Source: an uncultured Pirellulaceae bacterium (GTDB lineage Bacteria > Planctomycetota > Planctomycetia > Pirellulales > Pirellulaceae). Taken from it: 64,000 nucleotides of DNA. The stretch lies in contig CAYWSL010000001.1 in the NCBI GenBank assembly GCA_964460665.1, positions 24,032-88,031 on the forward strand. Direction: 5' to 3'. The notes beneath the pieces were generated by a model that was not told the DNA's origin, ran no database searches, and was given only the letters and a program-made list of their open reading frames with translations. The translations under genes were made by a program, and so were the position numbers. Shown piece by piece: positions 3,842 to 58,334 of the stretch; positions within the stretch are counted from its first letter, which is position 1; every line of letters begins with the position of its first letter.

Positions 3842-4183
3842 ATGACAGCACACAACGAAGAATCCAACATCAACCCCGGCAAGGAATGGGTCGACGCAGT
3901 AGCCGCGGACTCGATAGCCGGTGGCTGTGCCTCAGAAGTGGTTGTCCAAGGGCAAGTGCTGGCGATCTTTCGATCTGATGGGCGCTTGTTCGCAATGGAC
4001 GGCATGTGTGCCCATCAAGGGGGGCCCATTGCACAAGGCGAAGTTCAGCATGGCTGCGTAACCTGCCCCTGGCATGGCTGGCAGTACGAATTGGACTCCG
4101 GAATCCAAACCATCAATCGCCAACCGCTACAACAGACATTCCCAGTCCGCGAACAAAACGGAATGATCCAAGTTCAGTTGTAA
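3842..4183 (+). CDS. Rieske [2Fe-2S] ferredoxin (NirD/dioxygenase-ferredoxin-like)
   Basis: C-x-H (CAHQGG) and C-x-x-H (CPWHGWQY) Rieske ligand motifs in a 113-aa protein. Confidence 0.92.
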   Translation: MTAHNEESNINPGKEWVDAVAADSIAGGCASEVVVQGQVLAIFRSDGRLFAMDGMCAHQGGPIAQGEVQHGCVTCPWHGWQYELDSGIQTINRQPLQQTFPVREQNGMIQVQL

Positions 4184-24900: not shown

Positions 24901-27900
24901 GTCCCGTATCGCCAGCGCGGATATCAATGGCCGTATCAGCGGAGAAACTGATGACGTTCGAGTCGATGATAAACTGGCCTTGATTACGCACGCTATTGCG
25001 ATCGCCATTGTCTTCGCCAAGCAAGAAATCAGTGCCGGACACGATTCCTCGCAAGTGGGGTGATCCAAACGTCGATGAACCGGTTGCAGTGGCTGCGGCG
25101 TATCCATGGAAGAAGATCATGCGATCGGTCGGATCGTTTAACAAGCCGCCAGAACTGGTTGCCTCAATTCCAAGAATCGCGCGGACCGATGGGGAGTTGA
25201 TCGCGTTGCGAATCAAATCTGCCACTTCTCCAACGGTATCGGAAGTCACGTAGTCAATCGCGACGCTAGTTGACGCGACTGGCGTGTTGGACAACGTCGT
25301 GTCGTTGAATTCAAAACGGATCGTTTCGAATCCGTTTGAAAGTTCAAACGAATCTCCGTCCACCAGCTGCGCACCACTGCTTTCAACCAAGGCATTGAAC
25401 GCTCCAGCTAGGCGTTCATTCAGACGCCACCCTTCGGTTCCTGCAACACCGACCCCTATACCACCAACTCGGTTATCGATGGGCGGTGCAAAGGGATCGA
25501 TAACCTCTAGTTTTCCAGTGTTATCTACGCCCAAGTACTCTCGGCCAAGACGCACTTCTAATTGATAGGCACCACTGGTCACTTCGGAGGACGGAAAATA
25601 CGGGTTCGCAACAAGGCCTGAACCCGCTGTACTATTAGTGACGCTTTCGCCTCGTTCGGCGAGTCCAATCACGATGTCATCGATGTAGACGCCGTTATTG
25701 CCACCTACTCCGATTGAACGCTGGCCAGCACGCAATAAATCTTCAACGCTACTTACACCCCCGTTGAAAACGCCAAGCTCTGATGCGGGCAAGATGTCGT
25801 TGCTCCCAACAGGCGCAGTCAATTCCCCCGCAATAATAGGAAGTGCTGTCTGCCTGACAGTCAAGTCGTAGATGCGAATCCCACTGGTGCCATCGATCAA
25901 TGGGAACGCAGCGGGGTTTGGTCCCAGATCGGCATAGTGAATCTGGTTGACGATTGCGTCGTGAATTTGTGCTTGAACTTCATTGGCAGTCATATCCAGT
26001 TCGATTTCAATTGCCGTGCTTAGAAGATCAACACCAGGCTGACTGAGAATGAATCCATCATTTGGGTCACCAAATGTGTAGGTTCCAACTGCTGTCACGT
26101 TTGTAAATCCAACCCAGTCGGGGTGGTCGCTACTCCGAACGACACTAGGACCAAACCTTGCCGCAACCCTGTCCGCAACATCCTCTGCAGAGTCGGTATC
26201 TAGAACCAAGACTTGATTCCCCGTAGGCGTACCACTTGAAATCAACTCAACGACTGTGCCACCTGGGCCAGCCAACGTGAGTGGAGCCCCGACATCCTGC
26301 CCAGCTGGTAATCGGACAACCAAGCCAAGGTCAAACTCAAATACTTCAGTCCGATCAAGCAGAACATCACCCTGGATACTCGTTAGAGCATCTGGCATTT
26401 CTCCACTAAGCTCAATGGTGTCGCCGTCAAGAATTTGATCTGCGTCAACGGCATAAATCTCGGTCTGGTCTGGCCGAGTTTCGCCAGCCGTAGAGAATTC
26501 GTAACGGATGGTGACATCTTCGTCGCCGGCCCAAGGGCCAAGGTCAATCCTGGCCTGTCGGAATCCTTCGCCATCAAACAACTCTTGAACGAAAACCTGA
26601 GTAGATAAGTCAGTGTATCCGCTGACGTCTGGCCCAAACTCATCAATGGTGCTGTTGAAGTTTCGACCAGCAATGTTGCCGACAACGTTGTTGGTCGCGA
26701 CCAACGCCCACTGTCCATCGCTGCCAGATACATAAACACGCAATGTATCCCGCGCCGACACCGAAGCGTCGCCAAGATTAGTATTTACGTTCTCGGTATC
26801 CAACAGGTAAGTGAAATACAGTGTCGGCAAATCATCGCTACTGAATCCCGACAAGTCCAAAGCGTTGCTTTGAACGGTCCCGTGAGCTCCGCCTAGGAAG
26901 TTGTATCCCGAGAAGTTCTGAAGATCCGAAGCTGCCAAGCTGTTGACTGGAACATCTGACACATGATTGAAATCCGTGTCCAACGAATCGAACCCGAATC
27001 GCAAACTTGCACCACCTCCCACATTTCCACGATCTTGCAATGCGCCCAGTCCATGGCCAGGGATGTTGTTCGATGTGTTCGAATTGTGCCAAAGTGTTTG
27101 ATCCAATGGGCTGAAGAAGAAACCTGCATATCCAGCACCCGCATTCGCTGTATCAAGCTGAATCGATTCCGCACCAAACTCAAAGACAGGCTCGGCCACA
27201 TTAACGCCATCAAAGGCGTCTAATCGGAATGCAAACAAGCGATCAGTGCCTGACTGAATACCAAAGTACAGGTCACTAATTCCAATCGTGTCATTCACAT
27301 CGGTATAGTTAGCTGGCCCCTTAGTTACCTCGTCAAAGATAAGCAGAGTTCCTTGCGAATCGTAAATCCCTGGTAGCGTTCCAAACGGTGTTGCTACGCT
27401 TGGATTCAGCAAGAGTTCCGTATCGCTTACCCTAAACCCTGTTGGCGAGGCGAAGGTTGGCACCGTGTCCACTTGCAAATCACCAGGGGAATAATCAGCA
27501 CCGTCCCCATCTGCGTTTATGTCAAAGCTCCAAACGGCCCCTTGATCGGTAAATGCAAGTAGCGATTGCCCGCCATTGATATCTGTCACTAGGCTATTCA
27601 CGATTCCAGCAGTCGTCGGCACTTGAATTTGCGCAATAACGTCTGTGCCCGCCCACGGGGCTTCAAGTGGAATGTTAAAGTTGGCGTCGTTTTGCAGCCG
27701 TGGGTCAAGTGGACTGGCGGACTGGAACCCAGCACGCATATCGGTTTGGTTTCGACTAACCGCTTGTCCTGTGTCAGGATCCAAAAGATAGATCAGGTTG
27801 TCTGCATTGATGTCTCCAGCAAAGCCACCAATGATGTCAGCACCACCGGCATTCGCGATCACCTGACTACCACGGAATTCGGTACGATCGGCCAACCCAT

Positions 27901-30900
27901 ACAGAAACGACGTCTCAGAAATTGTGTCGTTGTAGTACGCCAGACTTCTGAACTCCACGCCATCGCCGTCCAAGGAGACACGGTTCGAGTTTGTTGTGGG
28001 ATCAGCGTCACCGTTGTCGAAATTTTCGTATGTGACAATTTCGGTTGTCCCGATGTCAGTTAAGGTCCCGTTGGAATCGATGCTGTAAACCGTATTGGTA
28101 TTGTTATCGGTCAAGTTTGGGACGGTTGGGCGTTCGATAGCCAACGTAACATTGCGCGGACTCTGCGCAGCAGCACCAATCGCGTCCGTGCCCCGGTCAA
28201 TAATCGCGTCGTGACGTCCAGTGAATGGGTTGAAAATATTCAACTGTGAATTATCACCAGCCGAACCCTGACGCCCGAAGACGATCAGCGGCAGGTCACC
28301 GAATTGCCAGGGAATGATATTTCCAGACCCATCGTCCTGGAAGCCGACCTGCAGCGCAGCGGGGGTTTGAAATGGATTGCCCGTTGGAGAGTCATTCGGT
28401 ATGTCGAACCGATCATCAGTCACTCGAATCGCTGAATCGATGGGCTCCAGTCGAGCGTTTGGGTTGGCGGGATTGCTTAACGTGAATTGCTGCAAGTCTG
28501 GTGCCATTAACGAGTTGTTGGCAACAACGACTTGGTAATTGATATTCGGTAATAGTTCCAAAGGCCCGATGAACGGGTCTCTTGCGCCTTGTGAACCGCG
28601 TGAAAGGTCATCTTGTGTTGTGGCGGGCAGCCCTGGAATGAATGGTGTGATCCTATCATCGGCGATATTCGAATCGGTACCAATCGCGATCAAATTGTTG
28701 TTGCCATCGAACAAGTACAAATTTGTGTCAGGACGCGTCAGGCCATCAGAGTAGTCCACATCGAACACCAAACTTTGAGCATTCGTGGTTGGAGGAACTC
28801 CCGGAAGAGGTGGCTGCAACCCATCACGCCCCGTGCTGAATTGGAACGTGTCGGTCGTGCCCGAATTGCCAGAGATGGAAACTGCACCTTGGTCTGTGTT
28901 GGCGAACGATCCAATGTTAACTGTTCCGCCAGGATTGCTGGCGACCTCGCCAGCGATTGTTGAATGGATGGGTAGCCCGACGACGTCGATTGCTGTTGTT
29001 GCATAGCGAATGTCAGCGTAACGAACGACAGAACCAGCGAACTGGTCGACTTCCTGCAGGCGAATCTGCACTCGATAACCACCCTGTGTCAAACCACCGG
29101 TATCAAGACTGGCATCAATTCCGGCTTCTGTTGTCAGGTCGAAAGCGGCATTGTTGCTACGAACACGAACAAAGAATGTTTGCTGGGTTCCGGTTGTCCC
29201 CGGCAGCACAATTCGCAGGCCAGAGTCACCATCATTGGTGGTGTACAGATCCCGATACTCACCAGTGGCATTTGTTGGTGCGTTGTGATCTAGCCGCATT
29301 GGAAGCGCATGACCGTCACGGATAATCCCAGTGTCAGTGTATGTCAGCTCTCCATTGTTCGATTCCGTACGTGAGTCTTGGCTGAGGGCAAGAACGCGAC
29401 CGTTTCCGTCCAAGATTTCCAATACCGTATCCAGCTGTGGATCGGTTTCGTCAATATCGATCCAGACCAGCGTGCCCCCAAACCCTTCAAAGCTATACAG
29501 GTCTTGGTCGTTGTTGTCCGCAATAGCGCCGTGAACGGTATAGCCAAGTCGAATTGTCTCGTCGCCGGATTCTGCATTGGGCGCCAGAATCCCCAGATCT
29601 TGCTGGCTACCGATCGTTGCATTCAGGTCGCCAAAGCCACCAATTTCGCCTTCATTTTCAATCACAACACTAATGTTTTGGTCGTGGCTGAACTCGTCAA
29701 ACTTCAATCCCTGCCAATCACCTGGCGCAGGGGTATTGGGCGTATTGGATGAAAGCGTCTGTGTTTGCACGCTGCCATCGGGCGCAAACGATGCTCCCAC
29801 CGTATCGTCATTGATCGAAGTCAGAATCACGGGGAAACCTGGCTGTCCTAAGACATGCAGACGTCCACCAATTCGGTCTGTGATATCAAGTGGGCGACCG
29901 GTCGCCAGAATTTCGGCATTGTCAAACTTGACGACCAACGACTCAGTCGCACTACTTTCCAACCGCAATCCACCGTAGGTGTGGAAATCGGGAATCTCGA
30001 TATCGTTTCGTAGCACGTGGACAATATCGGTATCATCCCAAACGACTTCGGTGGTCAGCACCTCGCCGCGAACGACCAAGCCATTGACGCCATTTCCAGC
30101 GGTTTGGTTGCCACGAATAACCGGGCCCGTGTTGGCAGGCGGGATATCGAACGTGTCGATATCGCCAGTTTGTCGACCAAGGTCACGATTGAATGTGGCA
30201 TTCAATGCGTTGACGTTGATGTCAATGGTCGCCCCAGCATTGTCCAGAAAGGTGTTGCCAACGATCGTGGGCTGCGTTCCTGTCACGTGAATCGTCGCAG
30301 CCGAGTTTCGAACAAAATCACTGCGTGAATTCAATTGCCCGCCACCTAGTCCGCTGGCGTTGTCACGCAAAACGCTGTTTGCAATTCGCGCGTCGGCTTG
30401 GTGGATTTGAATCGCATTGAAGGCAGCGGTACCACCACCGGCGCCAGTGATGCCACCAGCATAGGCCAGCAGCGCCCGGTCAATGCTTAGCGCACTGGTT
30501 GGTGAAGCATAAATACCGCCCCAATCTCCGGCGGCTTCTGTCGTTGCATCGCCATCTCCGTTGGTATCAAACGTACCACCAGCACCAAACTCGTCATCAT
30601 TTCGCGACGTCAGGATCACTTCATTGCCCGCGACACCCTCGGCAATCAAATTGGCTCCAAACCCAAGCTCAATCCGCGCACCTTGCGACTTCAGAATCGT
30701 ACCTGGATCCAGGACAAGGCTACCCGCAACATTACCGTGGCGAACAGAACCAACACTGGGATCTAGTACAGCTGCTGAGGTACTTGGGGTAGCCAGATTG
30801 TCAGTAAAGTCGGGTGAAGTCCGATCCAGTTGAGCAACGAGTTCGAAACTACCGCCACCAACACTTCGGTACAAACGTCGCCCAACGAAGTCGCCAGTCG

Positions 30901-33900
30901 CGGCGGGAATGTTGGTAAGTTCAATCTGGCTATTGGCAGAAACACCGAACACATCTTGCTGCACAGACCCGGGCGTCTCATTGCCTGCGGCATCCACAAA
31001 CGTGTAGCTGTACTGATAGTTTCCAGCCGCCAGATTTCCGCCAGCAACGGGGGTCAGGCCAATGATTGGAGCTGGACGTGTTGACTGTTGGACGCCGCCA
31101 CCAGCGGCTCCTTGAATGATCAAGTTTTCGTTCAACGCGTGAACAATGTCCGTGTCGTCGAACCGTGCGGTAACCTGCAAGGTTTCCAAACCACCACCTG
31201 GTGGCGTATCGATACGCACAAAAATCCCGTTGGTCGAATTATTAACTAGCGTATTGCCAAAGATGCTGGGCCCAACACGTTCATAGTCGGCAACAAATCC
31301 ATTGCCGCTAACGGATTCACTCTGGAAGCGAGGTTCAGTAAACGTCGTGACCTCGAACGTATTGGGGTCAGCCGACACCGCTGCATCCGAACTAAGCGTG
31401 ATCGTGTTGTAGGAAATTTCGGCACGTGCTTGCGAAAGATGAACTGGATCGATCACGCGATTGATGGTCGAAACTTCTCCACCGCCGTAACTGATCTGAG
31501 CGTGGTTGATGTAGTTCTGGAAGATCCCCAAACGCTCGACATCCAGTCGACCTTGTTCACGATCGACATCGTTTCGGATTTCGATGCCGCCCCAGTCACC
31601 AGCGGAAACTGGCAAGTTCAAGATGTTGCTGTTCGCTCCCAGTGTGCGATCGTTGAAGCTGGTGAAGTAGACAGGCAATTCAGGCGTGCCCTGAACCGAA
31701 ATCGTCGACTCGCTTCGATCAAAACCGTCGTCATCACTACCAACAGAAATGCGGCTGTCCAAGAACTTCATGATCACGCCTGCGTCAACCACCAACTGGA
31801 TTCCGCCAGGCAGATTCAAGTTGCGACCATCGGCCAAGGTCTGATTCAGCGACGAAATGATTCCAATTTCGTAAGCAATATTGTCACCTGGTGTCGTGAC
31901 ATCACCATCAGCACCGCCATTAGGCAGTAGCCTTACAACGACACCATCGGTGCCCGAAGCGGTCAGTGCTTCGGCGGCAGCAAGAGCGGCTGGAATATTG
32001 GTGAACGGGTTGGCCTGAGAACCAAGCGTGCTAACGCCATCTCCGGCTTCCTTGTTGACAAAGATCGTATTGGGCGCAGTTGGCTCGAACCAAAAATCAT
32101 AGATCCCGCCCGCTTCGCCATCTCGGTCGCCATCCAACAAGCTACCATCGGCGTCGATCATCGCCCCCGTGGCTTCGGATGTAAAGTCAACGCGTAAGTC
32201 ATAGACTCCTTCGGTTGTGCCACCAGGGGCTGGCACACCGGAATTAGGATTAAACGACGTGTTACCATCCGAGGCAACACCAATATAGTAGGTCGCGCCT
32301 GCGTCGACATCGTACTGAATGAACGAATCTGTCCCAAAGTAGTCGTTGTTGCTGGCGACAAGTTCAAGGCTACCGCCTTCTTCCCGGTAAAGCGTCAGGC
32401 TGGTGTCCAACAAACTGGAGTTGGGCAATCGTTTGGCAATTGCGTTGATTTCCAAGACACCTGTTTCGGCCACATCGATTTGATAAAGGTCCACGTCCCG
32501 CGACTCGTTTTGCATGAGCAGCAAGCCGTGAACGATATCATTGTCACCAGGAAACACCGGCTCAACACGAGGTTCGTTCACCGTCCGTACAGTATCTGGG
32601 TAGGGAAGGCCGTTTCCAAGTCTATCTCCCAGAACCGTACCTGGCGGCAAGTCATAGGCATGGCTAAGCCCGAGTGCGTGACCTACTTCGTGAAACGCCA
32701 CCTCGAAGAAACCACCACCGAAAACATCGTTTGCAGGATTACTGAAATCAGCCGTGTCTAAGATGGATAGACCGGGTGCCCCCAGTCCTGCGACGCCGCC
32801 GGGTCCGCTAACGAATCCCGGAGCGACTGCTGCAAAGTCTCCAACAAGCAAACGCAACCCACCCGCCGCATCGTCTTCAAAGAACTGGACACCCAACAGA
32901 TCCGCGTAAATGTCTAAAATCTCTAAGTAACGTTGCTCTTGGGCCGCATTGATGTCATTGAACAGCGGATCACCCTGGCTATTGAAACCATAAGGTGCAT
33001 TTCGCAAAAACGTGTAGGAGATCGTCCTGATCGCATTATCAGCGTCTCGACTGCGAGGTACTCCAAGATGATCTACGATTTCGATGTCACGGTGCCCCGG
33101 TTCATTGGTGCTGCCGGGATTGTCGACTTGTAGAGGAAGTCCAACGTTACGAATTTCTTCGCTTAGGCTGATCGACCAGCTTCCGCTGCTGGCGACAGGC
33201 AGTGTGTTGGCTGTCGCCGTTGTGAACCCAGGATCAGCAAAGACATTGTGTGGGGTTACATCTAACGCTGAAAAATCGGTGCCTTCGCCAATTCGCAAAC
33301 GCAGCGAGTCGCCTTGATCGGCAACGAAGTTATCCAGGTTTGCCGCAAACGTCAGCGTCACCTTTCGGTTAATCGGGTCAACGGCGACTCCACCGGCAAT
33401 CGGATTGACAATCACATCGTCTTCGGTGGTCACGGTATTACCAGTGTCTACCAACTGATAGAACGTTGGGTCGGCTATGGTGCTACCGTTGCGGAACAAG
33501 TCGTCGTCGTCAAAGTAAACATCGATTTGATCTAGTCGTGCTGTGCCATTCGTGTCGATGGGCTGGGGGACAACCGAAATGACCTTCGCACCCAACTCGA
33601 TCTCGAAGCTTATGACTTCACGCTCTAAGGTTGGGTCGCCTTCAACGGGCTGTGGAAAATTGGGCGCAAACGGCAGCAGAGACGTACTCTGCAATTCTGA
33701 AGTAATTGAAAGCTGGTAAAAGCCGTCCGCCAGATTTTCAGCGAAACGCAATGTCGCAATGCGCTGGGAGTCGTCCAGTCCGATGAACCCAATTGCCACT
33801 TGCTCAGAATCCAAAGCGAAGTTGCCCGACTCGCTGAACTCGACAGTGATCGCGGAATCCAAATTGGCTGGATCAATTCCATCGTTGCCACCAAACGTCA

Positions 33901-35350
33901 GCACTAATTCCGTCGGCGCGCGGTCTCGTACATTGGCTAGTACCTGATCTTGAGGATCCAAATCGAATAGATCCGAAGCGTTGGCCGCTACAGCCAATAG
34001 ATTAGGGTTCCCCGAGTTGCCTTCGGTGATGTTTAGATCGTACAGCTGGGTCGGCGTGACCGCACCCGATGCAGGTCCAATTGCTGAATCACCAAACACG
34101 CCAACCGTGTAGGTGCCGTCTTGCACAATGGGCAACGAGAACAGGAATTCTGGCTCGCCAATGAGATTGTTCGACTGGTTGGAAATCAGTGCCCCTGTCG
34201 GGTCATACAGTTCAAATCGCAGATCACTGTAAAGCGACGAATTCACAGTCGACACAATACCGCCGTCAACGCCCACATCGTAAACTTCACCTACTGGGAA
34301 AACAGTTAGATTGAGTAACTGGCCAGTGGTGGCGTCGAAACTGAACCAGTCAGCATCTGCGTTTTCATCAATCGACAGGTTCGTTTCCGTATCGATCGAC
34401 CCCAGAGCCCCCAGCGGCACTGCGGTTGCCTGGGTGTCATTGTCGCCGTAACGATCGCCATAAAGTGTGTGGGCTCCTAATATGTCGTCATGCTGCGGGC
34501 CCCGGAAAGCAAATGTAATATTGGGCTCCAGCAAAGCGTTGTTCGCAAAATTTGGCGCGACATGTCCCAGCCCGATCGAATGCCCTATTTCGTGCGTGAG
34601 CGTGTTGTGAAAACCCAAGTTTGGCCCGGCCGCCGTCGTGTCTGCATTGGCTGCATAAAACGGGTTCTGCGTATCGAATACGATGTCGCCAGCGGTTGGA
34701 AAGAATGCGAATGCCAGCACGCCAGGTTCGGCACTGCCATCGCCACCACTGATTCGAATGTCGCCACGCACCCCCAATTCACCCTCTCGACCTGCGTCGC
34801 CCAAAAAGTTGTCGACAGGCACGCCGTCATCGTTCGGTTCGTACACAAAGTCGATGCCGCTGGCATCTTCCCAGTCATCAAAGCCTCGCTGGAGCAGTTC
34901 AAACCACGGACGATTTTCAACTGGGTCGTTGGGCGCCGCGCCATTGTTTCCATAAATTCCATCCAAAAATGCGATCAGGTCACTTTGCTCGCCCGCCGCT
35001 AAATCGACCACCTCTGTTCCATCAGGAACGATGCTCCAAGTGATGACGGTAGAATCACCCAAGTTTGGACTTGTGCCACTGGCCGTTTGTGTCCATCGAC
35101 TTGGGTTGACCCCGATGTTGGCCGCCTGCGGGATATTTACAGGATCCGCGTTCCGCTGTTGATATTGCTCGATCTGCTCCTGAGTCGTTCCTGGAGCAAA
35201 CGCAGGTTGCAAAATTTCAGCAGCAAGCAACTCGCGACGTTCTAGCGTTTCGTGATTGAGCGAACGCTGAGACTCGGTAGCCGAACGCTTCCGCGCGCCT
35301 CGAAGTGACTTGCGTTTAGTGCGACGTAGTGGGAGAGATTGGTGGCTCAT
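15983..35350 (-). CDS. Giant secreted multidomain protein A (~6,455 aa; start MSHQSL at 35350): planctomycete leader, two matrixin/M10-type zinc domains, PPC, beta-helix, GEVED, ~13 cadherin/Ig-like (VNDxP) repeats, dockerin-like C-terminus
   Basis: One open frame of 19.4 kb. Motifs RSLNHETLERRELLAA, HEIGHSIGLGH, HEVGHALGLSH, TSxxDxxxG..GDWGG beta-helix segments, GDAPDSY...WIDFNNDGDF...GEVEDY, repeated PxNDxP, and DVDASGLVTPLDAILVIN..DVDGSQAITAVDAILVIN. Confidence 0.93.
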   Translation of the reverse strand: MSHQSLPLRRTKRKSLRGARKRSATESQRSLNHETLERRELLAAEILQPAFAPGTTQEQIEQYQQRNADPVNIPQAANIGVNPSRWTQTASGTSPNLGDSTVITWSIVPDGTEVVDLAAGEQSDLIAFLDGIYGNNGAAPNDPVENRPWFELLQRGFDDWEDASGIDFVYEPNDDGVPVDNFLGDAGREGELGVRGDIRISGGDGSAEPGVLAFAFFPTAGDIVFDTQNPFYAANADTTAAGPNLGFHNTLTHEIGHSIGLGHVAPNFANNALLEPNITFAFRGPQHDDILGAHTLYGDRYGDNDTQATAVPLGALGSIDTETNLSIDENADADWFSFDATTGQLLNLTVFPVGEVYDVGVDGGIVSTVNSSLYSDLRFELYDPTGALISNQSNNLIGEPEFLFSLPIVQDGTYTVGVFGDSAIGPASGAVTPTQLYDLNITEGNSGNPNLLAVAANASDLFDLDPQDQVLANVRDRAPTELVLTFGGNDGIDPANLDSAITVEFSESGNFALDSEQVAIGFIGLDDSQRIATLRFAENLADGFYQLSITSELQSTSLLPFAPNFPQPVEGDPTLEREVISFEIELGAKVISVVPQPIDTNGTARLDQIDVYFDDDDLFRNGSTIADPTFYQLVDTGNTVTTEDDVIVNPIAGGVAVDPINRKVTLTFAANLDNFVADQGDSLRLRIGEGTDFSALDVTPHNVFADPGFTTATANTLPVASSGSWSISLSEEIRNVGLPLQVDNPGSTNEPGHRDIEIVDHLGVPRSRDADNAIRTISYTFLRNAPYGFNSQGDPLFNDINAAQEQRYLEILDIYADLLGVQFFEDDAAGGLRLLVGDFAAVAPGFVSGPGGVAGLGAPGLSILDTADFSNPANDVFGGGFFEVAFHEVGHALGLSHAYDLPPGTVLGDRLGNGLPYPDTVRTVNEPRVEPVFPGDNDIVHGLLLMQNESRDVDLYQIDVAETGVLEINAIAKRLPNSSLLDTSLTLYREEGGSLELVASNNDYFGTDSFIQYDVDAGATYYIGVASDGNTSFNPNSGVPAPGGTTEGVYDLRVDFTSEATGAMIDADGSLLDGDRDGEAGGIYDFWFEPTAPNTIFVNKEAGDGVSTLGSQANPFTNIPAALAAAEALTASGTDGVVVRLLPNGGADGDVTTPGDNIAYEIGIISSLNQTLADGRNLNLPGGIQLVVDAGVIMKFLDSRISVGSDDDGFDRSESTISVQGTPELPVYFTSFNDRTLGANSNILNLPVSAGDWGGIEIRNDVDREQGRLDVERLGIFQNYINHAQISYGGGEVSTINRVIDPVHLSQARAEISYNTITLSSDAAVSADPNTFEVTTFTEPRFQSESVSGNGFVADYERVGPSIFGNTLVNNSTNGIFVRIDTPPGGGLETLQVTARFDDTDIVHALNENLIIQGAAGGGVQQSTRPAPIIGLTPVAGGNLAAGNYQYSYTFVDAAGNETPGSVQQDVFGVSANSQIELTNIPAATGDFVGRRLYRSVGGGSFELVAQLDRTSPDFTDNLATPSTSAAVLDPSVGSVRHGNVAGSLVLDPGTILKSQGARIELGFGANLIAEGVAGNEVILTSRNDDEFGAGGTFDTNGDGDATTEAAGDWGGIYASPTSALSIDRALLAYAGGITGAGGGTAAFNAIQIHQADARIANSVLRDNASGLGGGQLNSRSDFVRNSAATIHVTGTQPTIVGNTFLDNAGATIDINVNALNATFNRDLGRQTGDIDTFDIPPANTGPVIRGNQTAGNGVNGLVVRGEVLTTEVVWDDTDIVHVLRNDIEIPDFHTYGGLRLESSATESLVVKFDNAEILATGRPLDITDRIGGRLHVLGQPGFPVILTSINDDTVGASFAPDGSVQTQTLSSNTPNTPAPGDWQGLKFDEFSHDQNISVVIENEGEIGGFGDLNATIGSQQDLGILAPNAESGDETIRLGYTVHGAIADNNDQDLYSFEGFGGTLVWIDIDETDPQLDTVLEILDGNGRVLALSQDSRTESNNGELTYTDTGIIRDGHALPMRLDHNAPTNATGEYRDLYTTNDGDSGLRIVLPGTTGTQQTFFVRVRSNNAAFDLTTEAGIDASLDTGGLTQGGYRVQIRLQEVDQFAGSVVRYADIRYATTAIDVVGLPIHSTIAGEVASNPGGTVNIGSFANTDQGAVSISGNSGTTDTFQFSTGRDGLQPPLPGVPPTTNAQSLVFDVDYSDGLTRPDTNLYLFDGNNNLIAIGTDSNIADDRITPFIPGLPATTQDDLSRGSQGARDPFIGPLELLPNINYQVVVANNSLMAPDLQQFTLSNPANPNARLEPIDSAIRVTDDRFDIPNDSPTGNPFQTPAALQVGFQDDGSGNIIPWQFGDLPLIVFGRQGSAGDNSQLNIFNPFTGRHDAIIDRGTDAIGAAAQSPRNVTLAIERPTVPNLTDNNTNTVYSIDSNGTLTDIGTTEIVTYENFDNGDADPTTNSNRVSLDGDGVEFRSLAYYNDTISETSFLYGLADRTEFRGSQVIANAGGADIIGGFAGDINADNLIYLLDPDTGQAVSRNQTDMRAGFQSASPLDPRLQNDANFNIPLEAPWAGTDVIAQIQVPTTAGIVNSLVTDINGGQSLLAFTDQGAVWSFDINADGDGADYSPGDLQVDTVPTFASPTGFRVSDTELLLNPSVATPFGTLPGIYDSQGTLLIFDEVTKGPANYTDVNDTIGISDLYFGIQSGTDRLFAFRLDAFDGVNVAEPVFEFGAESIQLDTANAGAGYAGFFFSPLDQTLWHNSNTSNNIPGHGLGALQDRGNVGGGASLRFGFDSLDTDFNHVSDVPVNSLAASDLQNFSGYNFLGGAHGTVQSNALDLSGFSSDDLPTLYFTYLLDTENVNTNLGDASVSARDTLRVYVSGSDGQWALVATNNVVGNIAGRNFNSTIDEFGPDVSGYTDLSTQVFVQELFDGEGFRQARIDLGPWAGDEDVTIRYEFSTAGETRPDQTEIYAVDADQILDGDTIELSGEMPDALTSIQGDVLLDRTEVFEFDLGLVVRLPAGQDVGAPLTLAGPGGTVVELISSGTPTGNQVLVLDTDSAEDVADRVAARFGPSVVRSSDHPDWVGFTNVTAVGTYTFGDPNDGFILSQPGVDLLSTAIEIELDMTANEVQAQIHDAIVNQIHYADLGPNPAAFPLIDGTSGIRIYDLTVRQTALPIIAGELTAPVGSNDILPASELGVFNGGVSSVEDLLRAGQRSIGVGGNNGVYIDDIVIGLAERGESVTNSTAGSGLVANPYFPSSEVTSGAYQLEVRLGREYLGVDNTGKLEVIDPFAPPIDNRVGGIGVGVAGTEGWRLNERLAGAFNALVESSGAQLVDGDSFELSNGFETIRFEFNDTTLSNTPVASTSVAIDYVTSDTVGEVADLIRNAINSPSVRAILGIEATSSGGLLNDPTDRMIFFHGYAAATATGSSTFGSPHLRGIVSGTDFLLGEDNGDRNSVRNQGQFIIDSNVISFSADTAIDIRAGDTGPGNKAPNEGDRPKPGVPQSLPTLQSGAGTLHGAVVQNNLLISNGTGISLSGNPAQGGPDVFTRIVNNTVFGSTGTGIAIANRAAPTLINNVVANNDVGISAVNEGPTVIRGTVFDNNDDSNTTGIGMGTEAIVDPVGDLFVNPNIGIFDPFAGSPNFYPAAGSALIDIGIGSQPDRPNLVAVKDSVGIPESPIVVTEVDLAGQIRRDGSTAAGQGGNVNIDIGALDRSDTTGPEAIIIVPTDNDALNADIDREDTFLQLTDGIFSFFEILISDGTGIGPDSSTITPNQLTILENGRQLFPGLDVVIGYNASNRTLRFSPPSGTWRNDAVYEIILQNQPATLANGVVVEGVSDLAGNLLQPNRADGQTRFTIVMPGVELDLGDAPDSYGTAFGDNGARHAIIDFGSPRLGRFVDGETDSAGVGSDDVPSVVTAQGNVGEASSGPFAITTVGGVTTVDLTALPSLNDNLQITASGRLAVFELVPQGGTATVGRIPVEFAPSDTLADITTSLADAVANALPSQNLLATVTQSGATQFELRGADDEDGASIGQVTIGSTTIDGVFTDPATNEVLSYLNPLSPDGAELVVSTIGGGILDLWIDFNNDGDFLDANERVVVGQPVLDGENRLQISTPSDISFLSNSVNGTGTTFARFRLSDAGNPSPIGLVVGGEVEDYNVFIARAALPEPDDDQFGRADGLFEDNPFTLTAANAVGANDVLSGAAGVEYVLESDVSNGTLVFNPDGSFSYDPATDFFGTDTFTYRITGTQDVEVGGVLVALPVRSSRAATVTLTIEAENDPPTALSQSVVTTEPSDTNTLTAITLTSAQLLTGATPHVDVASLPSPFNESEQALKVSQVSVFDSTGVLTPLVDASQLLDPTTPIDGTYTAPTHVADGTGFVQSGTVSITVLNGGVESVTYQPAEDYNRDNPDAGGFPSFDQFVFTVADDGATTLADGNPAVPQPLPQTVDATVTILVQPQNDPPTAANDVIDSSTFGVALQEDTPFTIPTAFLLSNDFAGTQADDDESLGINDTAVSLVTAQGATNTTLIGAVNSGIAVDDTATGTGYILFSELNVFTRFAAAPPVNLPGVINSSNLVAARFNGFTWEYNNDSNWIPFTPDPTDRLIAAVNFDFDTIDSLLYATGTVSGIQQGFVASDLTFESNQFGGQPDLGEFLVSGTFFDTSADPEFPTEFRAFPLTTNRGGTVSLDSATGDLVYTPPLDYFGPDSFEYLIVDQGVNVAVDGTSVVQNKFDIATATLTIDPVNDAPAANDQGFVTLEDTPITITADMLRTGSVGHANPVLPFPFDESNQDATTTVTALNIGAETVTAANAANGPFPTTNGTIDAVNFDTNDNLIDFQYTPNPDFNADNPRTGGGRTIDQFSYTLTDDGIAQLPTGGTFTNPPESVQALVSIFVTPQNDDPVASDDLITSTSSIWNSFSSINPVEDSALVIPAAFLLSNDTNAPTSAGDELGGINDTSNLTIVNTVFTTALGGTVTLLPNGDLLYEAPADRFGLDTFEYQVADQGVDEDVNGTRQLSPRPDTATVSILIEPINDAPRAFDRSFGGVEDTLVSFTAADLLGGANPAIAIDASTLPPAPFVENEQSLRVVAFSDGDESIDVNDLFDPSIGLNGTGTLTLNTVSGGLLTFNFSSGAFVDGTYLPGQDYNQRTPFAAVELFDYVVADDGVTTLVGSGDVDDTGVDTVLDLPDQRSAPATVELTVTSVNDPPSFQFQSVVDILERDDSLATSISDFATNVFPGPATALDELQRESVVFTYLPDQSTVQPGLFLQAPSVSSSGVLSVHPSPDVIGSATIVMRVEDLDNLTPGFVPQTQLITFTVNVRPVNDAPQIRSSVLNTSDSASPDAAYSVAGNGEVTYTLTEDNTDSNGVASPYLIPLSAPTGAGFAPIGLLDLFEVGPSNEVSAADGGSQVLELFNFPTQTDLGGTLVAVTDGSGDVIGLEYTPPADYNNTQGVSDSFNYLVNDVSTTGGETFSLFSGQLEPDPLTASNRVRLNLTPVNDAPIYQLSTNNVQAAEDAGLQSVAGFAFNFAAGPATATDEIEFALGQNIDFELSPVNITAADLPTSFTTEPTISAAGVLQYESAPDVFGQFVFEVSLVDDGLGADVSTRGDINRSNIETLTIDIRPVNDPPAIDPAAGSLAFNNSENTTLFISANGSIVSGDLLGAFTVGPANEASTADPGGNQSLALGVVPLTTVSGGTLTAVQDAAGNLTGYDYQPPVNFVGQDSFVYQLQDDGETVLVASNGQPTADPRTTDVTVTINVVGVNDPPIFTGAADVIVLEDEGVVTIPDWATSVLPGPLGALDEVSGATAQTVTASLTSLSNSSSLFATQPTVTLVGTTLSLSFETAQDQSGVADFQLVLTDNGPAIAANGDVNQTVHPFQIVIGVENDPPTFTASPTPVLVDEDSGLFTLSNWATNISPGPGDEAATQTIDRFEVEVPAGRENLFAVLPNVSVTGELTFTPAPDANGTVDVLVTAVDSVAGRSLPATLTITINPVDDSPIAVDDTVLANEDELLRIDPADLLANDFDPDSAFDPNEVLSVVISTPLVSDLGATITRDSNGDLIYDPTTSTILQALPPNTSLVDQFTYMITDTDGEDPMPTANVLLNVQGINDEPTAVADSVFAAPNVGLDIDVLANDFDVDGSIDPASIIITLQPENGSLIVNNSGTVTYVSDVGFTGPDEFSYTVGDDLGQQSEPATVTVDVGDLPTANPDVASGVSVAGQLDVDVLANDEGDFLASTLVIETQPTNGTVTILPNGQLRYVPTAPFTGQDSFTYSVEDSSGRRSLPGTVTLNFVVGGRQNQVDNFDVDASGLVTPLDAILVINMIADEGLFIPIPDDDFGPLFWDVDGSQAITAVDAILVINFIADRSDIFGEQVDAPIQPIGSDTIELGTNLNRNGDQFEPAMSISDSTDQVITTSSVAQQADFSVIDLIAGDDEETDEQDEIAAVDAVLSDLF

Positions 35351-35431
35351 GGAAGCAACACGCAGTTCAAAAAGGCAGTGAATGAAGTCAGAGGATGAAA
35401 TGCAAACTCTGAGAACAAAAATCAAAAATGG

Positions 35432-35460
35432 AAAAACTCAAATACCGATATCTTACCGGT
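35432..35460 (-). terminator. Weak hairpin plus U-rich tract ~95 nt upstream of the giant gene A start
   Basis: Minus strand accggta-aga-tatcggt followed by atttgagttttt. Confidence 0.3.
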
Positions 35461-35500
35461 TTCCCTCTGAGGCAACCTGCTTCAGAAGCGGAACACAACG

Positions 35501-35518
35501 GGGCTAGCGAACCAGCCC
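35501..35518 (-). terminator. GC-rich hairpin just after the giant gene B stop
   Basis: Minus strand gggctgg-TTCG-ctagccc (7 bp, UUCG loop) 16 nt after the stop, followed by cgttgtgtt (weak U-tract). Confidence 0.45.
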
Positions 35519-35534
35519 TGTCGCGATCCAAAAA

Positions 35535-41500: not shown

Positions 41501-44500
41501 GGGCTACACCGCTGATGACTGAACCATCGTCAAGGAAAAGTTCGCCGTCGTCGGTAAGCGTGAATTCAAACTCATCCGTTCTTAAGCTGCCATCGGCGAG
41601 CGGAAGATTGTCGCTGTTGAAGTCCACCGCGGGCGTGTACAGCACAGTCGTGATGAAACCTTGAGCGTCAAACAGCGCGCTGATCGTGGCGCCTTCATCA
41701 GTAGTCGCCGTGGCGTTCGCGCTGCTAACGATAACCCCGCCTGAACTGATGGATTCCACGTGTAGAATCTGGTCCGATTCGTCTTGCGGTGGCGTCGTGA
41801 TTGCTGGCGATGCATGTCCTGTAGCACCAGCTAGTAATTCGGCAGCCGAAATCGCCAGCGTTGTATCCTCAACACCAATGAAGCTCTGGTTTTGTGCTCC
41901 AGGGATATCGTTGATTGGCTGGACATCAATCGTGACGGTCGCGAAAGTCGAAGTCGTCGGCGATCCAGGGCCTGAATTCTGCTGCGTGCTCAATCGATAC
42001 GTGAAGGTATCAATTCCAAAGAAGTCTTCGTTGGGTTCGTAGGTGAACTCGCCTGTCAATTCATCCAGAACGGTCAACGTTCCGTTTTGAGGCTGATCAC
42101 CAACGAAATAGCGAACAGGAAGGATCTGAGTGGCTAGGTCTTGGTCGTTGGACAACAAGTTGCGCTGGGGACTTAGTGCATCGACTACCAATGTCGTGTC
42201 TTCGATCGCTGTGTACTGATCATTGACAGGTACTGGCAAGGCAATTGGCAGAACAGAAATTTCAAAGTCTTCGACCTCTCCGCCGACGCTAACGCCGGTA
42301 GGCGTCAAGTTGCCTGATTCGCTGATGCGAACTCGCATCCATGTATCACCTTGGGTAGCATTGCTTGGAGCAAAGAAGTTGACGATGTTCTCTCCGTTAA
42401 CAACAGCTACGTTAGAGATCACCTGCTCGTCAGCTTCAAAGAAACCGTTGCGGTCAAAGTCAACCCAGGCGTCTAGTAAACCAGCCCCAACCACGTTGAC
42501 GATCGTGGAAGTTCCAGCCGGATCAAGTGGGTTCAAGAACCCGATGACGTCATCTCCTGACACGTTGTTCGGTGGAGTCCCCGGTGTCGTAAAGACGTGG
42601 AATGGGATTCCAGCGTTGTTGACAAAGATCCCGGTCGAAATACCGTCTTCGTCATCGATCGCTTCCAATATGATCGCTCCGTCAACCGTGTCGACCGTCA
42701 TGATGATGGACTCATCAATCCCGTCGATCTCTGCTCGAATGGCTTGCGAAAGGTTGCGAGCGATGTTTCCTGCGGTGTCGCCAGCGACGAAATTGACCGG
42801 AACGTTTCCTTGAGCCGGGTTGGATGTCGACAACGTCAACTCAAACGTCGCCGTAACGTCCCCCGCTTGAATCGTCAGCGTTTCACCACCGAGTGGTTGG
42901 ATGTTTGCGATGTTGATGCTACGTGTGCTGGCGTTTGGTGCAACGACCGTGAAGACCAGCCCAGTCTCGGTTGCGTTCAAGACGAGAGGTGTATCATCAC
43001 CGTTGGGAGTAGACGCCCCGTCAGTCTCCGTATCCAAGAAGTTGCCCAATCGCGGCACCCGGTCGCTGGACACTGTGTGTCGTGCACCATTGTCCGCGTC
43101 CAGCGTTCCGAAAGAAGCCGGAGCGTCACCGTAGTCGAAAACGACATCTGGCATGATGATCGTAAAGCGAGTTTCGTCAGTGATGCGAGTTTCGCGAACT
43201 GGGTTGCCGGCCAAGTCGGAAACAGCAGGCAACAGAGTCCCGATGCTCGATGGCACACTGCCGCCAAACGTTGCCTGAATAAGCTGCGTGTCGGAGATCA
43301 GAAGCGTGCCTGCTCCGGGGCTGGTCACAGTCACACCCGCTGCGGAATTTCTGATGGCGGCTTGCAGGGCAGCTGCTGTTGAGGCGGAAGTGAACTGGGT
43401 CGTTGGTATGAATGGAACGACAACTGCATCTGTCGTGACACCGGGCGAACCCAGCAAAGTCATGCCCGACTGGTCCAATGTCAAAACGTCTCCTACAACA
43501 CCACCTACCAAGACGGTTCCATTTCCAACCGCCTGCGCCGTGCCCAAGCCAAGGCCGTGAACGTCCAAAGCAATTTCCGCGGCAATTGCCTGCGCGATTT
43601 CATCCGGTGTGTCCGTGTTCGAAATCGCGATTGGAACGAAGCTTGGATCGCTTACCAGAGCGTCTTCGGTTAACTGAAATGTCACCGACTGAGTGCCACT
43701 GGTGTAGGTGAACGTGTCTCCATCTGCCAAACCTTGATCGACCCCTGTTACGTCGGCAGAGGCAATCGTGCTGGTGATGGTGTGTCCGGTTACCGTACCG
43801 AGCTGAAGTTGGCTTGCACCAATCGATCTAGGTGTCAGCCCTAGGACTTCAGCGGTTGTCATCGTCGGATCAAGCGGGTCCGCCGAATTCAGCAAATTCA
43901 AGAATGCGTCACGAACTTGTACAACCGTTCCGGCGTCTCGTGCATCAAATATGATATTGGACGACCCTGCCGTGATGAAGTTATCAAGGTCCACTTCGAT
44001 CGTGCGAGTGATGCCTGATGGCGACGTGATCGTCAATGTTTCTTCGTCCGTCAAATCCGCATTCGTTCCACTGAATGTCAAAAGCGTTGATTGAGGGACC
44101 TGCAAGCTGAATCCACTGTCGAATTCAAAGACCGTTGCCGTGCCGTCTTCTTCGATCGTGGTGACTTGGTCACCATCCAAGATTTGATCACCAGCCGGCA
44201 GTGTCACTTCGATACGCGGCCTGTTATTTATCGTGATCTCATAAACCGAATCCGATCGCCACAAACCGGTCAAGGGTGTCAAGCGAATGGTTCGGCTATT
44301 TGAACTGTAGCCAAAGATGTAATCTTCATCTGGAGTTAGCTGACGTCCGTTTTCGGTAAGGATCACGTTGCTGGAGTTGATCGTCAGTGGGTCCAAACCG
44401 GTGCCGGCGGTGTCAGTCAACTGAACATCAAAGAACTCAACGATGCCTTCAGCCAATCGCACAAACGACTGGTCGACATCCTGGTCGCCGCCAGCAACAG

Positions 44501-58124: not shown

Positions 58125-58175
58125 ATGACCTGACCTAAAACTAAAGGCGTAAAAATGAAATCACTGCGATTGCAG

Positions 58176-58210
58176 CACAAAACCGAATCGAACTTCAGTG
58201 TTCAATTCGG
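58176..58210 (-). terminator. Intrinsic terminator-like hairpin between giant genes C and B
   Basis: Minus strand ccgaattgaac-actgaa-gttcgattcgg (11 bp including one G-U) followed by ttttgtg. It lies ~125 nt after the C stop and ~55 nt before the B start. Confidence 0.5.
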
Positions 58211-58334
58211 TGGCGAAATAAAAAGGTAGGGCCCCAAAAATGGGTGACTTACGAATCATCCAGTGAAACTTCTCGTTCTTGTTTTTTGCTAAATCATAGT
58301 TGTTACTACTCGGCTCTGCCCAACATAGGTGGGG

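What the first reader, a model, noticed from the sequence alone, without database searches (positions are those of the whole stretch)
43230..44220. Slot 2: graded Russian-doll insertion of 0, 3 and 6 modules at the same loop in A, B and C
Between WRxDxxYxIx(L/I)xN and (S/Q)DL(A/S)GN, A has ~13 aa (23835-23932), B ~330 aa and C ~690 aa (61870-63960). In B and C the first module is split: its N-half (..DG.Q/F..I..G..TVFEF(D/E)(S/T)G) and C-half (PGV/PGG..V.V.F/V..T....V/A..A(L/I)..AI) enclose 2 (B) or 5 (C) complete inner modules. Recursive insertion of a domain into its own loop, as in flagellin outer domains or phage sheath protrusions, would build telescoping arms of paralog-specific length. 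I know of no description of this architecture; the structural interpretation is inference.
Basis: partly seen in the sequence, partly recalled or inferred. Interest (0 to 1): 0.8.

Follow-up and report, generated by a model that had tools for sequence, protein, structure and literature searches.

The report
Self-nested domain array in giant planctomycete protein
Three neighbouring giant surface-protein genes of a marine planctomycete carry 0, 3 or 6 copies of an unannotated ~100-residue domain in the same loop of a small beta-sandwich domain, and the first copy is itself split open to hold the others, an unusual but not unprecedented way of building a side branch on a protein fibre.

Summary
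On the minus strand, paralogs A (15983-35425), B (35535-58124) and C (58335 to beyond 64000) share a host beta-sandwich domain. Between its strand WRxDxxYxIxLxN and its motif (S/Q)DL(A/S)GN, A has 14 residues, B about 335 and C about 695.

HMMs built only from modules outside the slot map the B and C inserts as N-half, then 2 or 5 whole modules, then C-half. Natural homologs hold one unsplit module at the same point. In 64 family members the slot length is quantised at 0 to 7 modules.

AlphaFold2 models the B slot confidently (pLDDT 88, pTM 0.77). No coordinates were returned, so contact between the two halves is inferred, not seen.

The module matches no Pfam or NCBIfam model at threshold, yet occurs in more than 2000 protein clusters, mostly giant proteins. 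It is marginally similar to the external D3 domain of myophage tail sheaths and to the flagellin/FliD "IN" domain.

In the window the nesting is two levels deep: host, then module 1, then a linear run of modules. Two relatives show 5-6 levels at another site. Function is unknown; a lateral display or binding branch is the best guess.

Precedents are the split domains of RTX adhesins and a flagellin outer domain inserted into its own duplicate.

The parts
15983..35425 (-). Gene A, giant paralog (6480 aa), slot 2 empty
   Evidence: ORF list; colinear with B at 33-45% identity
35535..58124 (-). Gene B, giant paralog (7529 aa). Planc_extracel motif at the N-terminus; GEVED, Cadherin-like/Big_9 and Dockerin_1 domains towards the C-terminus
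58335..64000 (-). Gene C, giant paralog. The N-terminal part lies beyond the window end; 1887 aa are visible
23771..24058 (-). A: intact host beta-sandwich domain (aa 3790-3885). The empty slot loop QPATLANGVVVEGV is at 23852-23893
44223..44372 (-). B: host domain, N-terminal strands (aa 4585-4634, ends ...WRSDSVYEITINN)
   Evidence: AF2 strands E18-64, pLDDT about 90
44103..44222 (-). B: module 1 N-half (aa 4635-4674), a beta1-beta2 hairpin DGDQVTTIEEDGTATVFEFDSG
   Evidence: Matches module HMM positions 2-31 only. AF2 strands 84-88 and 94-100, pLDDT about 95
44058..44102 (-). B: outgoing linker strands (aa 4675-4689; the motif GFxLxVP, here GFSLQVP, starts at aa 4671 in the preceding part)
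   Evidence: Conserved in all split homologs and absent from the unsplit P0003. AF2 strands 103-106 and 112-115
43752..44057 (-). B: inner module 2, whole (aa 4690-4791)
   Evidence: HMM 2-100, i-E 2e-21. Positional ortholog of module 2 in P0011, P0014 and P0016
43491..43751 (-). B: inner module 3, whole (aa 4792-4878)
   Evidence: HMM 2-100, i-E 2e-24. Single-module AF2 model: pLDDT 90.5, pTM 0.82
43437..43490 (-). B: return linker strands (aa 4879-4896, DVLTLDQSGMTLLGSPGV; motif xTLxVxGxPG)
   Evidence: Conserved motif before every C-half. AF2 strands 311-313 and 320-322
43227..43436 (-). B: module 1 C-half (aa 4897-4966), beta3-alpha-beta4-beta5-beta6
   Evidence: HMM 34-90 only. AF2 E332-335, H344-356, E363-383 in the same order as a whole module
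43149..43226 (-). B: host domain, C-terminal strands (aa 4967-4992, SDLAGN...RFTIIMP)
   Evidence: Aligns to A 3857-3885
63852..63998 (-). C: last host strand before the slot (aa 1-13) and module 1 N-half (aa 14-49)
   Evidence: HMM 5-29
63795..63851 (-). C: outgoing linker GFQLLLPEPLTLSVPPQGT (aa 50-68)
62124..63794 (-). C: five whole inner modules, 2 to 6 (aa 69-186, 187-285, 286-400, 401-524, 525-625)
   Evidence: Each covers HMM positions about 3-100, i-E 4e-20 to 3e-27. Positional orthologs in P0013
61884..62123 (-). C: return linker (aa 626-637, APTLNVIGVP) and module 1 C-half (aa 638-705)
   Evidence: HMM 36-63 and half-HMM C hit 638-686
61803..61883 (-). C: host domain C-terminal strands (aa 706-732, QDLSGN...EFTILLP)

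Best explanation
Slot 2 is a domain-insertion hot spot in a small beta-sandwich ('split') domain of a family of giant secreted or surface proteins of Pirellulaceae (Planctomycetota).

The loop between the strand ...Y.I.L.N and the strand carrying DLAGN holds a side branch. The branch is built from one kind of ~100-residue alpha/beta module, with the order beta1-beta2 hairpin, beta3, helix, beta4-beta6.

Module 1 sits on the host domain. Further modules are not added after it. They are inserted inside it, between its beta2 and beta3, through a conserved pair of linker strands (outgoing GFxLxVP, returning xTLxVxGxPG). The chain therefore reads host-N, M1-N, M2...Mn, M1-C, host-C. A has no module, B has three and C has six.

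Because entry and exit of both the host loop and the M1 loop are adjacent, the whole array must be a lateral protrusion whose size, not the fibre length, is set by the module number.

The module is a distant relative of decoration domains: the external D3 domain of myophage tail sheaths and the flagellin/FliD 'IN' outer domain. The likeliest role is display or binding (adhesion, or protein or glycan contacts) at a set distance from the fibre axis.

Shown: the slot, the module, the split order, the quantised copy number, and a confident fold of each element.
Inferred: physical pairing of the two M1 halves, the geometry of the branch, and the function.
For: Slot and motifs.

Independent HMMs map N-half, whole modules and C-half.

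BLASTP of B against P0003: P0003 10-110 matches B-query 2-102, and P0003 110-215 matches B-query 323-432. Relative to a natural one-module protein, B therefore has a single 220-residue insertion at one point inside the module. P0006 is likewise unsplit.

Graded series in homologs: 0, 1, 2, 3, 4 or 5 inner modules.

Census of 67 candidate motif pairs, of which 64 are under 900 aa and treated as slots. Lengths cluster at about 28, 118, 225, 345, 430-495, 545-577, 630-710 and 836 aa.

Half-HMMs built from modules outside the slots give N(NC)kC. The full string NNCNCNCC occurs in 15 or more proteins, and 35 of 54 multi-module slots end in 'CC' at score >= 8. Arrays elsewhere are mostly NC, NCNC or NCNCNC.

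AF2 model of B aa 4570-5010: mean pLDDT 88.4, pTM 0.77. The N-half hairpin has pLDDT about 95, and the secondary-structure order of the two M1 halves equals that of a whole module.

Module family size: 2028 cluster representatives at E<=1e-3, mostly 2000-8000 aa with 5-24 modules each.

Remote relatives:
- Profile against PDB sequences: phiTE tail sheath 9cb9, E=5.2e-4 over module positions 15-93; sheaths 9hz7 (7.8e-3) and 8fop (0.076); FliD 6iwy (8.6e-3); flagellin 4nx9 (0.1).
- Pfam Flagellin_IN is the family hit by most modules (5 of 100, best E 2.8e-4).
- PHROG tail sheath, E 5.5e-4.
- BFVD Foldseek: best E 1.8e-3, TM 0.53, with several sheath, nozzle and baseplate proteins in the list.
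[quoted passage not shown] The module model has the same order.

Surface-protein context: Planc_extracel, GEVED, Cadherin-like, Big_9 and Dockerin_1.

The assembly is sound.
Against: No coordinates or contact map were returned by the structure tool. Packing of the N-half against the C-half is inferred from confidence values and secondary-structure order, not observed.

Foldseek against the PDB found nothing significant, either for the whole slot model (best E 0.09) or for a single module (best E 0.56; A-1(L) sheath at E 2.4). All links to sheath D3 and Flagellin_IN are marginal and below the curated thresholds.

Detection of the halves is weak in individual proteins (i-E 1e-3 to 5e-2 for the N-half in B and C). 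The pattern is convincing only across many proteins.

Nothing bears on function: no expression data, no ligand, and no cultured host.
Confidence: 0.72

Rival explanations
1. Linear tandem array with decayed ends. The first hairpin and the last beta-alpha-beta piece are remnants of two different, partly deleted modules and do not assemble with each other.
For: Scores of the halves are low in single proteins. No contact map is available.
Against: The one-module homologs P0003, P0006, P0117, P0132 and P0143 carry N and C contiguous at the same place, and P0003 is colinear with both halves of B. The halves cover complementary, non-overlapping HMM ranges. They always occur together and are conserved across genera. 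Specific linker motifs flank the insertion point. pLDDT is about 95 for the hairpin and pTM is 0.77. Arrays outside slots do not begin with NN or end with CC as a rule.
Confidence: 0.08
2. The branch has no binding role. It is a structural spacer, steric shield or cross-linker, with modules packing against neighbouring fibres or the cell envelope. Copy number then tunes the thickness of a surface coat rather than any binding.
For: Sheath D3 domains often have no conserved function, and some only stabilise the assembly (PMC11972413; PMC9230969). Modules are positionally conserved and old, not diversifying like receptor-binding tips. The same module also forms long linear runs elsewhere in these proteins.
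Against: None directly. In RTX adhesins, domains projected from split domains are typically ligand-binding (PMC12077191).
Confidence: 0.3
3. Artefact: a mis-assembly between paralogs, or a gene-calling error, creates apparent insertions.
For: The sequence comes from a metagenome and there are three similar paralogs in tandem.
Against: Contigs from three independent runs span the B slot identically. The reading frames are open for 6480 and 7529 aa. The same architectures recur in dozens of proteins from other assemblies.
Confidence: 0.01

Closest known systems
[quoted passage not shown] 2024, Proteins 92:933, cited there)
   Same: An Ig-like beta-sandwich in a giant fibrillar surface protein is interrupted by an inserted domain whose N and C termini are adjacent, so the insert buds sideways from the fibre axis. 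Nested budding occurs there too (beta-roll, then vWFA, then an insert).
   Different: Here the insert is made of 1 to 7 copies of a single module family, and the first copy is itself the split domain for the rest. The copy number at one slot varies between paralogs and species. There is no RTX beta-roll or type I secretion signal; the context is planctomycete (Planc_extracel motif, Dockerin-like C-terminus). No ligand is known.
Flagellin outer domains, in particular G. thiophilus flagellin D4/D5 (PMC11532411)
   Same: [quoted passage not shown] This is the same principle: a domain inserted into a copy of itself. The module profile weakly hits FliD (6iwy, E 8.6e-3), flagellin (4nx9, E 0.1) and Pfam Flagellin_IN (5 of 100 modules).
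   Different: This is not a flagellin: there are no D0/D1 helices. The flagellin case has one level and one extra copy, whereas here up to 6 inner copies sit in one loop, and relatives nest 5-6 levels deep. The sequence relationship is below family thresholds.
External D3 domain of myophage tail sheath proteins (phiTE 9cb9, Milano, A-1(L); PMC11972413, PMC9230969)
   Same: It is a small, non-essential decoration domain inserted into a conserved core. It is a beta-sandwich with a helix between strands 3 and 4. The best sequence-profile match of the module is E 5.2e-4 over about 80 residues. Sheath proteins also acquire additional domains by nested insertion.
   Different: Foldseek does not confirm the fold match at a significant level. 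The host protein and its biology are unrelated. Sheath external domains are not known to be inserted into copies of themselves.

Membership tests
RTX-adhesin split-domain / projected-domain unit | A beta-sandwich extender domain interrupted by an inserted domain, with adjacent entry and exit | tested here: met
   A has the intact domain. B and C have the insert between the same two strands. AF2 places strands on both sides of the insert with pLDDT about 90.
RTX-adhesin split-domain / projected-domain unit | [quoted passage not shown] | tested here: not met
   Pfam scans of B and C show Planc_extracel, GEVED, Cadherin-like, Big_9 and Dockerin_1, and no RTX/HemolysinCabind.
RTX-adhesin split-domain / projected-domain unit | The projected domain binds a ligand | not testable with these tools
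   Needs binding assays.
Myophage tail-sheath external domain D3 (class I) | Significant sequence similarity to D3 of phiTE, Milano or A-1(L) | tested here: inconclusive
   Profile A5 against PDB sequences: 9cb9 E 5.2e-4, 9hz7 7.8e-3, 8fop 0.076. PHROG tail sheath for 1 of 100 modules, E 5.5e-4. Pfam Phage_sheath_1 for 1 of 100 modules, E 0.025.
Myophage tail-sheath external domain D3 (class I) | [quoted passage not shown] | tested here: inconclusive
   The AF2 module reads b1 b2 b3 helix b4 b5 b6, so the order agrees. However, six strands rather than seven were called. Foldseek gives the A-1(L) sheath only at E 2.4 and BFVD sheaths at E 0.6-1.2.
Pfam Flagellin_IN (PF07196) / FliD D2-like outer domain | A score above the Pfam gathering threshold | tested here: not met
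   No module reaches significance in whole-protein scans. Per-module scans: 2 of 18 (best E 0.09) and 5 of 100 (best E 2.8e-4). It is the most frequent family, but most modules do not hit it.
Self-inserted duplicated domain (as flagellin D4/D5 of G. thiophilus) | A copy of a domain lies inside a loop of another copy of the same domain | tested here: met
   N-half, whole modules and C-half are mapped by HMMs that exclude slot sequences. There are unsplit natural homologs.
Known Pfam/NCBIfam module families | The module or host domain matches a curated model | tested here: not met
   No Pfam hit in B aa 4001-5200 other than GEVED and later domains. NCBIfam gives none for either slot. The host domain of A has no Pfam hit even at E<=5.

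The most novel reading that the evidence does not exclude
The module is a 'matryoshka' domain: a fold that tolerates, and has repeatedly fixed, insertion of copies of itself into its own beta2-beta3 (or beta3-helix) loop. In the window this gives one split module holding 2 or 5 whole ones. In colinear relatives (P0038 aa 3278-3788, P0092 aa 3491-3968) it gives five to six hairpins followed by five C-halves in mirror order, a polypeptide nested 5-6 levels deep. If the models hold, planctomycete giant proteins use self-insertion, rather than only tandem repetition, as a general way to grow branched side structures of defined size on a fibre. No paper found in the searches made here describes that architecture at this depth.
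Probability: 0.5. Interest if true: 0.75.

Novelty: new variant of a known kind. Interest (0 to 1): 0.6.

Why it matters
Giant genes are a hallmark of Planctomycetota, and most of their sequence matches no annotated domain. This defines a new, abundant ~100-residue module (over 2000 protein clusters) and shows how it is deployed.

It adds a clear natural series (0 to 7 copies in one loop, and 5-6 nested levels elsewhere) to the very few known cases of a domain inserted into a copy of itself. That is useful for understanding how multidomain proteins grow, for domain-boundary prediction in repeat proteins, and for protein engineering of insertion-tolerant scaffolds.

It also hints at a shared origin of surface 'decoration' domains in flagellins, phage tail sheaths and bacterial fibres. 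The split-domain criterion used to locate ligand-binding regions in RTX adhesins would point to this slot as the place to look for what these fibres bind.

Tried and rejected
- Foldseek of the 441-residue slot model against the PDB gave only weak Ig-like hits (best E 0.09).
- Foldseek of a single module against the PDB gave nothing significant.
- NCBIfam gave no family for the slots.
- Pfam on the intact host domain of A gave nothing even at E<=5, so calling the host 'Ig-like / Big_5-like' rests on the AF2 strand pattern, weak Foldseek Ig hits and my recollection of the D.AGN motif.
- An exact 50-mer from the window was not found in the GTDB genomes.
- A protein scan of the same collection found only one relative, a Pirellulaceae MAG at 68% identity.
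- DNA tandem-repeat search of both slots was empty, which rejects recent repeat expansion.
- I considered a register-shifted reading, in which the domain is C-half(i) plus N-half(i+1). I rejected it because it leaves more orphan pieces than the N+C reading.
- A literature search for 'Russian doll / nested domain' found nothing relevant.
- The second structure job went to a single module rather than the six-module C slot. Without coordinates, a C model would have added only confidence numbers.
Full report
**Context.** The right two thirds of the window hold three giant minus-strand genes in tandem: A (15983-35425, 6480 aa), B (35535-58124, 7529 aa) and C (58335 to beyond the window end, 1887 aa visible). 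A and B are colinear paralogs at 33-45% identity, and C aligns with their C-terminal third.

Pfam finds the Planctomycete extracellular motif at the N-terminus of B. It finds a weak right-handed beta-helix, then GEVED, Cadherin-like/Big_9 repeats and a Dockerin_1 domain near the C-terminus. Most of each protein has no hit. Neighbouring genes are housekeeping (beta-oxidation, an M16 peptidase) plus a DUF1598 protein.

The closest relatives are fragments from Pirellula, Rubripirellula and Rhodopirellula MAGs and one Pirellulaceae MAG in GTDB. The window sequence itself is present in four marine-metagenome runs. These are therefore giant secreted or surface proteins of a marine member of the Pirellulaceae.

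Between WRxDxxYxIx(L/I)xN and (S/Q)DL(A/S)GN, A has 14 residues, B about 335 and C about 695, at the stated coordinates. The A/B BLAST alignment breaks exactly there. Contigs from three independent runs cover 42900-44600 without a single difference. Neither slot contains DNA-level tandem repeats.

**The module.** Hand-cut repeats from the B and C inserts align with each other and with similar stretches elsewhere in A, B and C. The consensus reads roughly ..DG(D/E)TFxIxDG..xVTFEFDxxG....GNVPIxFxxxDTxxxIAxAIxxAINxxxLGLxAxxxGxGxVxLxG....

An AlphaFold2 model of module B3, using 100 diverse family modules as the alignment, is confident (pLDDT 90.5, pTM 0.82). Its element order is beta1, beta2, beta3, helix, beta4, beta5, beta6.

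An exhaustive HMMER search with the window's 18 modules finds 2028 cluster representatives at E<=1e-3 and 211 at E<=1e-30. Most are proteins of 2000-8000 residues with 5-24 modules each. The module matches no Pfam or NCBIfam model at threshold.

**Split versus whole.** I built HMMs that contain no slot-2 sequence or no artificial chimeras. In B they hit:
- aa 4641-4683 on HMM positions 4-29;
- two full-length modules (4684-4790 and 4792-4891, positions 2-100);
- aa 4892-4963 on positions 34-90.

In C they hit:
- aa 20-55 on positions 5-29;
- five full-length modules (66-173, 187-288, 283-400, 414-524, 527-631);
- aa 632-697 on positions 36-63.

The two end pieces are thus complementary parts of one module, cut between beta2 and beta3. 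The inner modules are contiguous and linear.

**The strongest evidence comes from natural variants.**
- P0003 and P0006 carry a single, unsplit module in the same slot.
- By BLASTP, P0003 residues 10-110 align to B-query 2-102 (host plus N-half). P0003 residues 110-215 align to B-query 323-432 (C-half plus host). B therefore differs from P0003 by one 220-residue insertion at one point inside the module.
- P0001, P0002, P0009, P0010 and P0015 have one inner module. P0011, P0012, P0014, P0016 and P0018 have three. P0005 has four. P0013 has five, like C.

Split forms share two linker motifs that the unsplit form lacks: GFxLxVP after the N-half and xTLxVxGxPG before the C-half. Both are predicted as strands.

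**Census.** In the 172 retrieved family proteins plus A, B and C, the regular expression found 67 candidate pairs of host motifs. Of these, 64 are under 900 aa and were treated as slots. Slot lengths fall into discrete classes:

| Slot length (aa) | Modules |
|---|---|
| about 28 | 0 |
| about 118 | 1 |
| about 225 | 2 |
| about 345 | 3 |
| 430-495 | 4 (the commonest class) |
| 545-577 | 5 |
| 630-710 | 6 |
| 836 | 7 |

Separate N-half and C-half HMMs, built only from modules outside any slot, read the slots as N(NC)kC:
- NC for one module and NNCC for two;
- NNCNCNCC in at least 15 proteins;
- NNCNCNCNCNCC for six modules.

At a stricter score, 35 of 54 multi-module slots still end in CC. Arrays outside the slot are mainly NC, NCNC and NCNCNC.

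**Age of the modules.** Each module resembles its positional counterpart in other species more than its neighbours in the same protein. B.M2 matches P0011.M2 and P0014.M2, B.M3 matches P0011.M3, and C.M2, M3, M5 and M6 each have the same-position module of P0013 as their best hit (C.M4 has none). Identity to neighbours in the same protein is only about 25-35%. The architectures are therefore old and fixed, not recent expansions.

**Structure prediction of the whole B slot.** The model covers aa 4570-5010 with 23 sequences in the alignment. Mean pLDDT is 88.4 and pTM is 0.77. The N-half hairpin has pLDDT about 95. The secondary-structure elements of the two M1 pieces (E84-88 and E94-100, then E332-335, H344-356, E363-368, E371-375, E379-383) reproduce the order seen in a whole module.

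A pTM this high for 441 residues argues for a defined, compact arrangement rather than beads on a string. The tool returns no coordinates, however. Physical pairing of the halves is an inference from these numbers and from the sequence evidence, not something I saw.

**What the module resembles.** Foldseek against the PDB is not significant for the slot model (best E 0.09) or for the single module (best E 0.56). Sequence profiles are more informative but marginal.

The 100-module profile against PDB sequences gives:
- phiTE tail sheath 9cb9, E 5.2e-4, over module positions 15-93;
- two other sheaths, 9hz7 (7.8e-3) and 8fop (0.076);
- the flagellar cap FliD 6iwy (8.6e-3);
- flagellin 4nx9 (0.1).

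Further weak signals point the same way:
- Pfam Flagellin_IN is the family hit by most single modules (5 of 100, best E 2.8e-4; 2 of 18).
- One module hits the PHROG tail-sheath family.
- Against predicted viral structures the best match has E 1.8e-3 and TM 0.53. Several sheath, nozzle and baseplate proteins follow.

The phiTE paper describes the non-conserved external sheath domain D3 as a beta-sandwich with a helix joining strands 3 and 4. It notes homologous domains in Milano and A-1(L) (PMC11972413). The strand-helix order agrees with the module model.

I read this as a probable distant relationship to a broad class of surface decoration domains. It is not established membership.

**How it probably works.** Both the host loop and the M1 loop have adjacent entry and exit points. 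The array must therefore leave and rejoin the fibre at one place, so it is a side branch and does not lengthen the fibre. A linear run of inner modules inside a loop must also bring its two ends together. This favours a folded-back or clustered arrangement over a telescoping rod. That point is inference.

The nearest functional analogy is the split domains of RTX adhesins. These project ligand-binding domains away from the adhesin axis and can be nested (PMC12077191). The nearest structural precedent for self-insertion is G. thiophilus flagellin, where D5 is a duplicate of D4 inserted in one of its loops and D4 is related to FliD D2 (PMC11532411).

I therefore propose a lateral display or binding branch whose size is set by the paralog: none in A, three modules in B, six in C. 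A purely structural or shielding role is a serious rival. Nothing here tests function.

**Beyond the window.** Two family members colinear with B carry a fully recursive arrangement at the position of an upstream slot: P0038 aa 3278-3788 and P0092 aa 3491-3968. P0038 2932-3331 aligns to B 2601-2996. There, five to six hairpins in a row are followed by five C-halves in a row.

The cut points match in mirror order:
- The inner N pieces include beta3, and their presumed partners start at the helix.
- The outer N pieces end after FEFD, and their partners start with beta3.

Outermost-with-outermost pairing predicts exactly this.

**Verdict.** The feature is real, well supported and general. It is a new variant of known principles (split-domain projection, and self-insertion of a duplicated outer domain) built from an abundant but unannotated module. 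The structural reading is likely (about 0.7). The function is open.

Noticed in passing
related proteins P0038 aa 3278-3788 and P0092 aa 3491-3968 (not in the window; colinear with B around aa 2996): Five to six consecutive N-half hairpins are followed by five consecutive C-halves (NNNNNCCCCC), with cut-point types matching in mirror order. This looks like a 5-6-level recursive nest of the same module.
   Followed up: partly
A has one hairpin followed by a divergent module. Its topology was not resolved.
   Followed up: partly
window 39705-40886 (B aa 5747-6140): Four linear tandem modules in B have no counterpart in A; the A/B alignment jumps from A 5097/5100 to B 5747/6150. This is another site where module number differs between paralogs, here without a split module.
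   Followed up: partly
window 42630-42923 (B aa 5068-5165), 23231-23533 (A aa 3965-4065), 61254-61565 (C aa 812-915): One whole module is conserved in all three paralogs about 100 residues downstream of slot 2, just before the GEVED domain. Its C-terminal part ends in a DDEDG motif that the slot modules lack.
   Followed up: no
window 44330-46124 (B aa 4001-4598): A weak right-handed beta-helix signal (Pfam Beta_helix E 0.025, NosD 0.12) lies directly upstream of the host domain. Homologs P0001 and P0007 show the same NNxxxN-rich region, so the host beta-sandwich follows a beta-helix.
   Followed up: no
window 14015-15676 (minus strand): A 553-aa protein with DUF1598, a domain I recall as largely planctomycete-specific, lies immediately downstream of gene A on the same strand. 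It may be functionally linked to the giant genes.
   Followed up: no
window 35426-35534 and 58125-58334: Only 109 and 210 bases separate the three giant genes, which lie head to tail on one strand. This suggests co-transcription of about 48 kb or more of coding sequence.
   Followed up: no
window 43230-44220: The region is held completely by four runs of one marine-metagenome study. Two algae-metagenome runs of another study hold 8-12% of its words, hinting at related strains on algal surfaces.
   Followed up: no
module profile (alignment A5) against PDB: Besides phage and flagellar proteins, the profile hits two computationally designed proteins (7m0q 'network hallucinated protein', E 1.9e-3; 8ka7 de novo design, E 0.04) through the beta-helix-beta element. 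That part of the module may simply be an idealised, low-information alpha/beta motif, which is a caution for the remote-homology claims.
   Followed up: no
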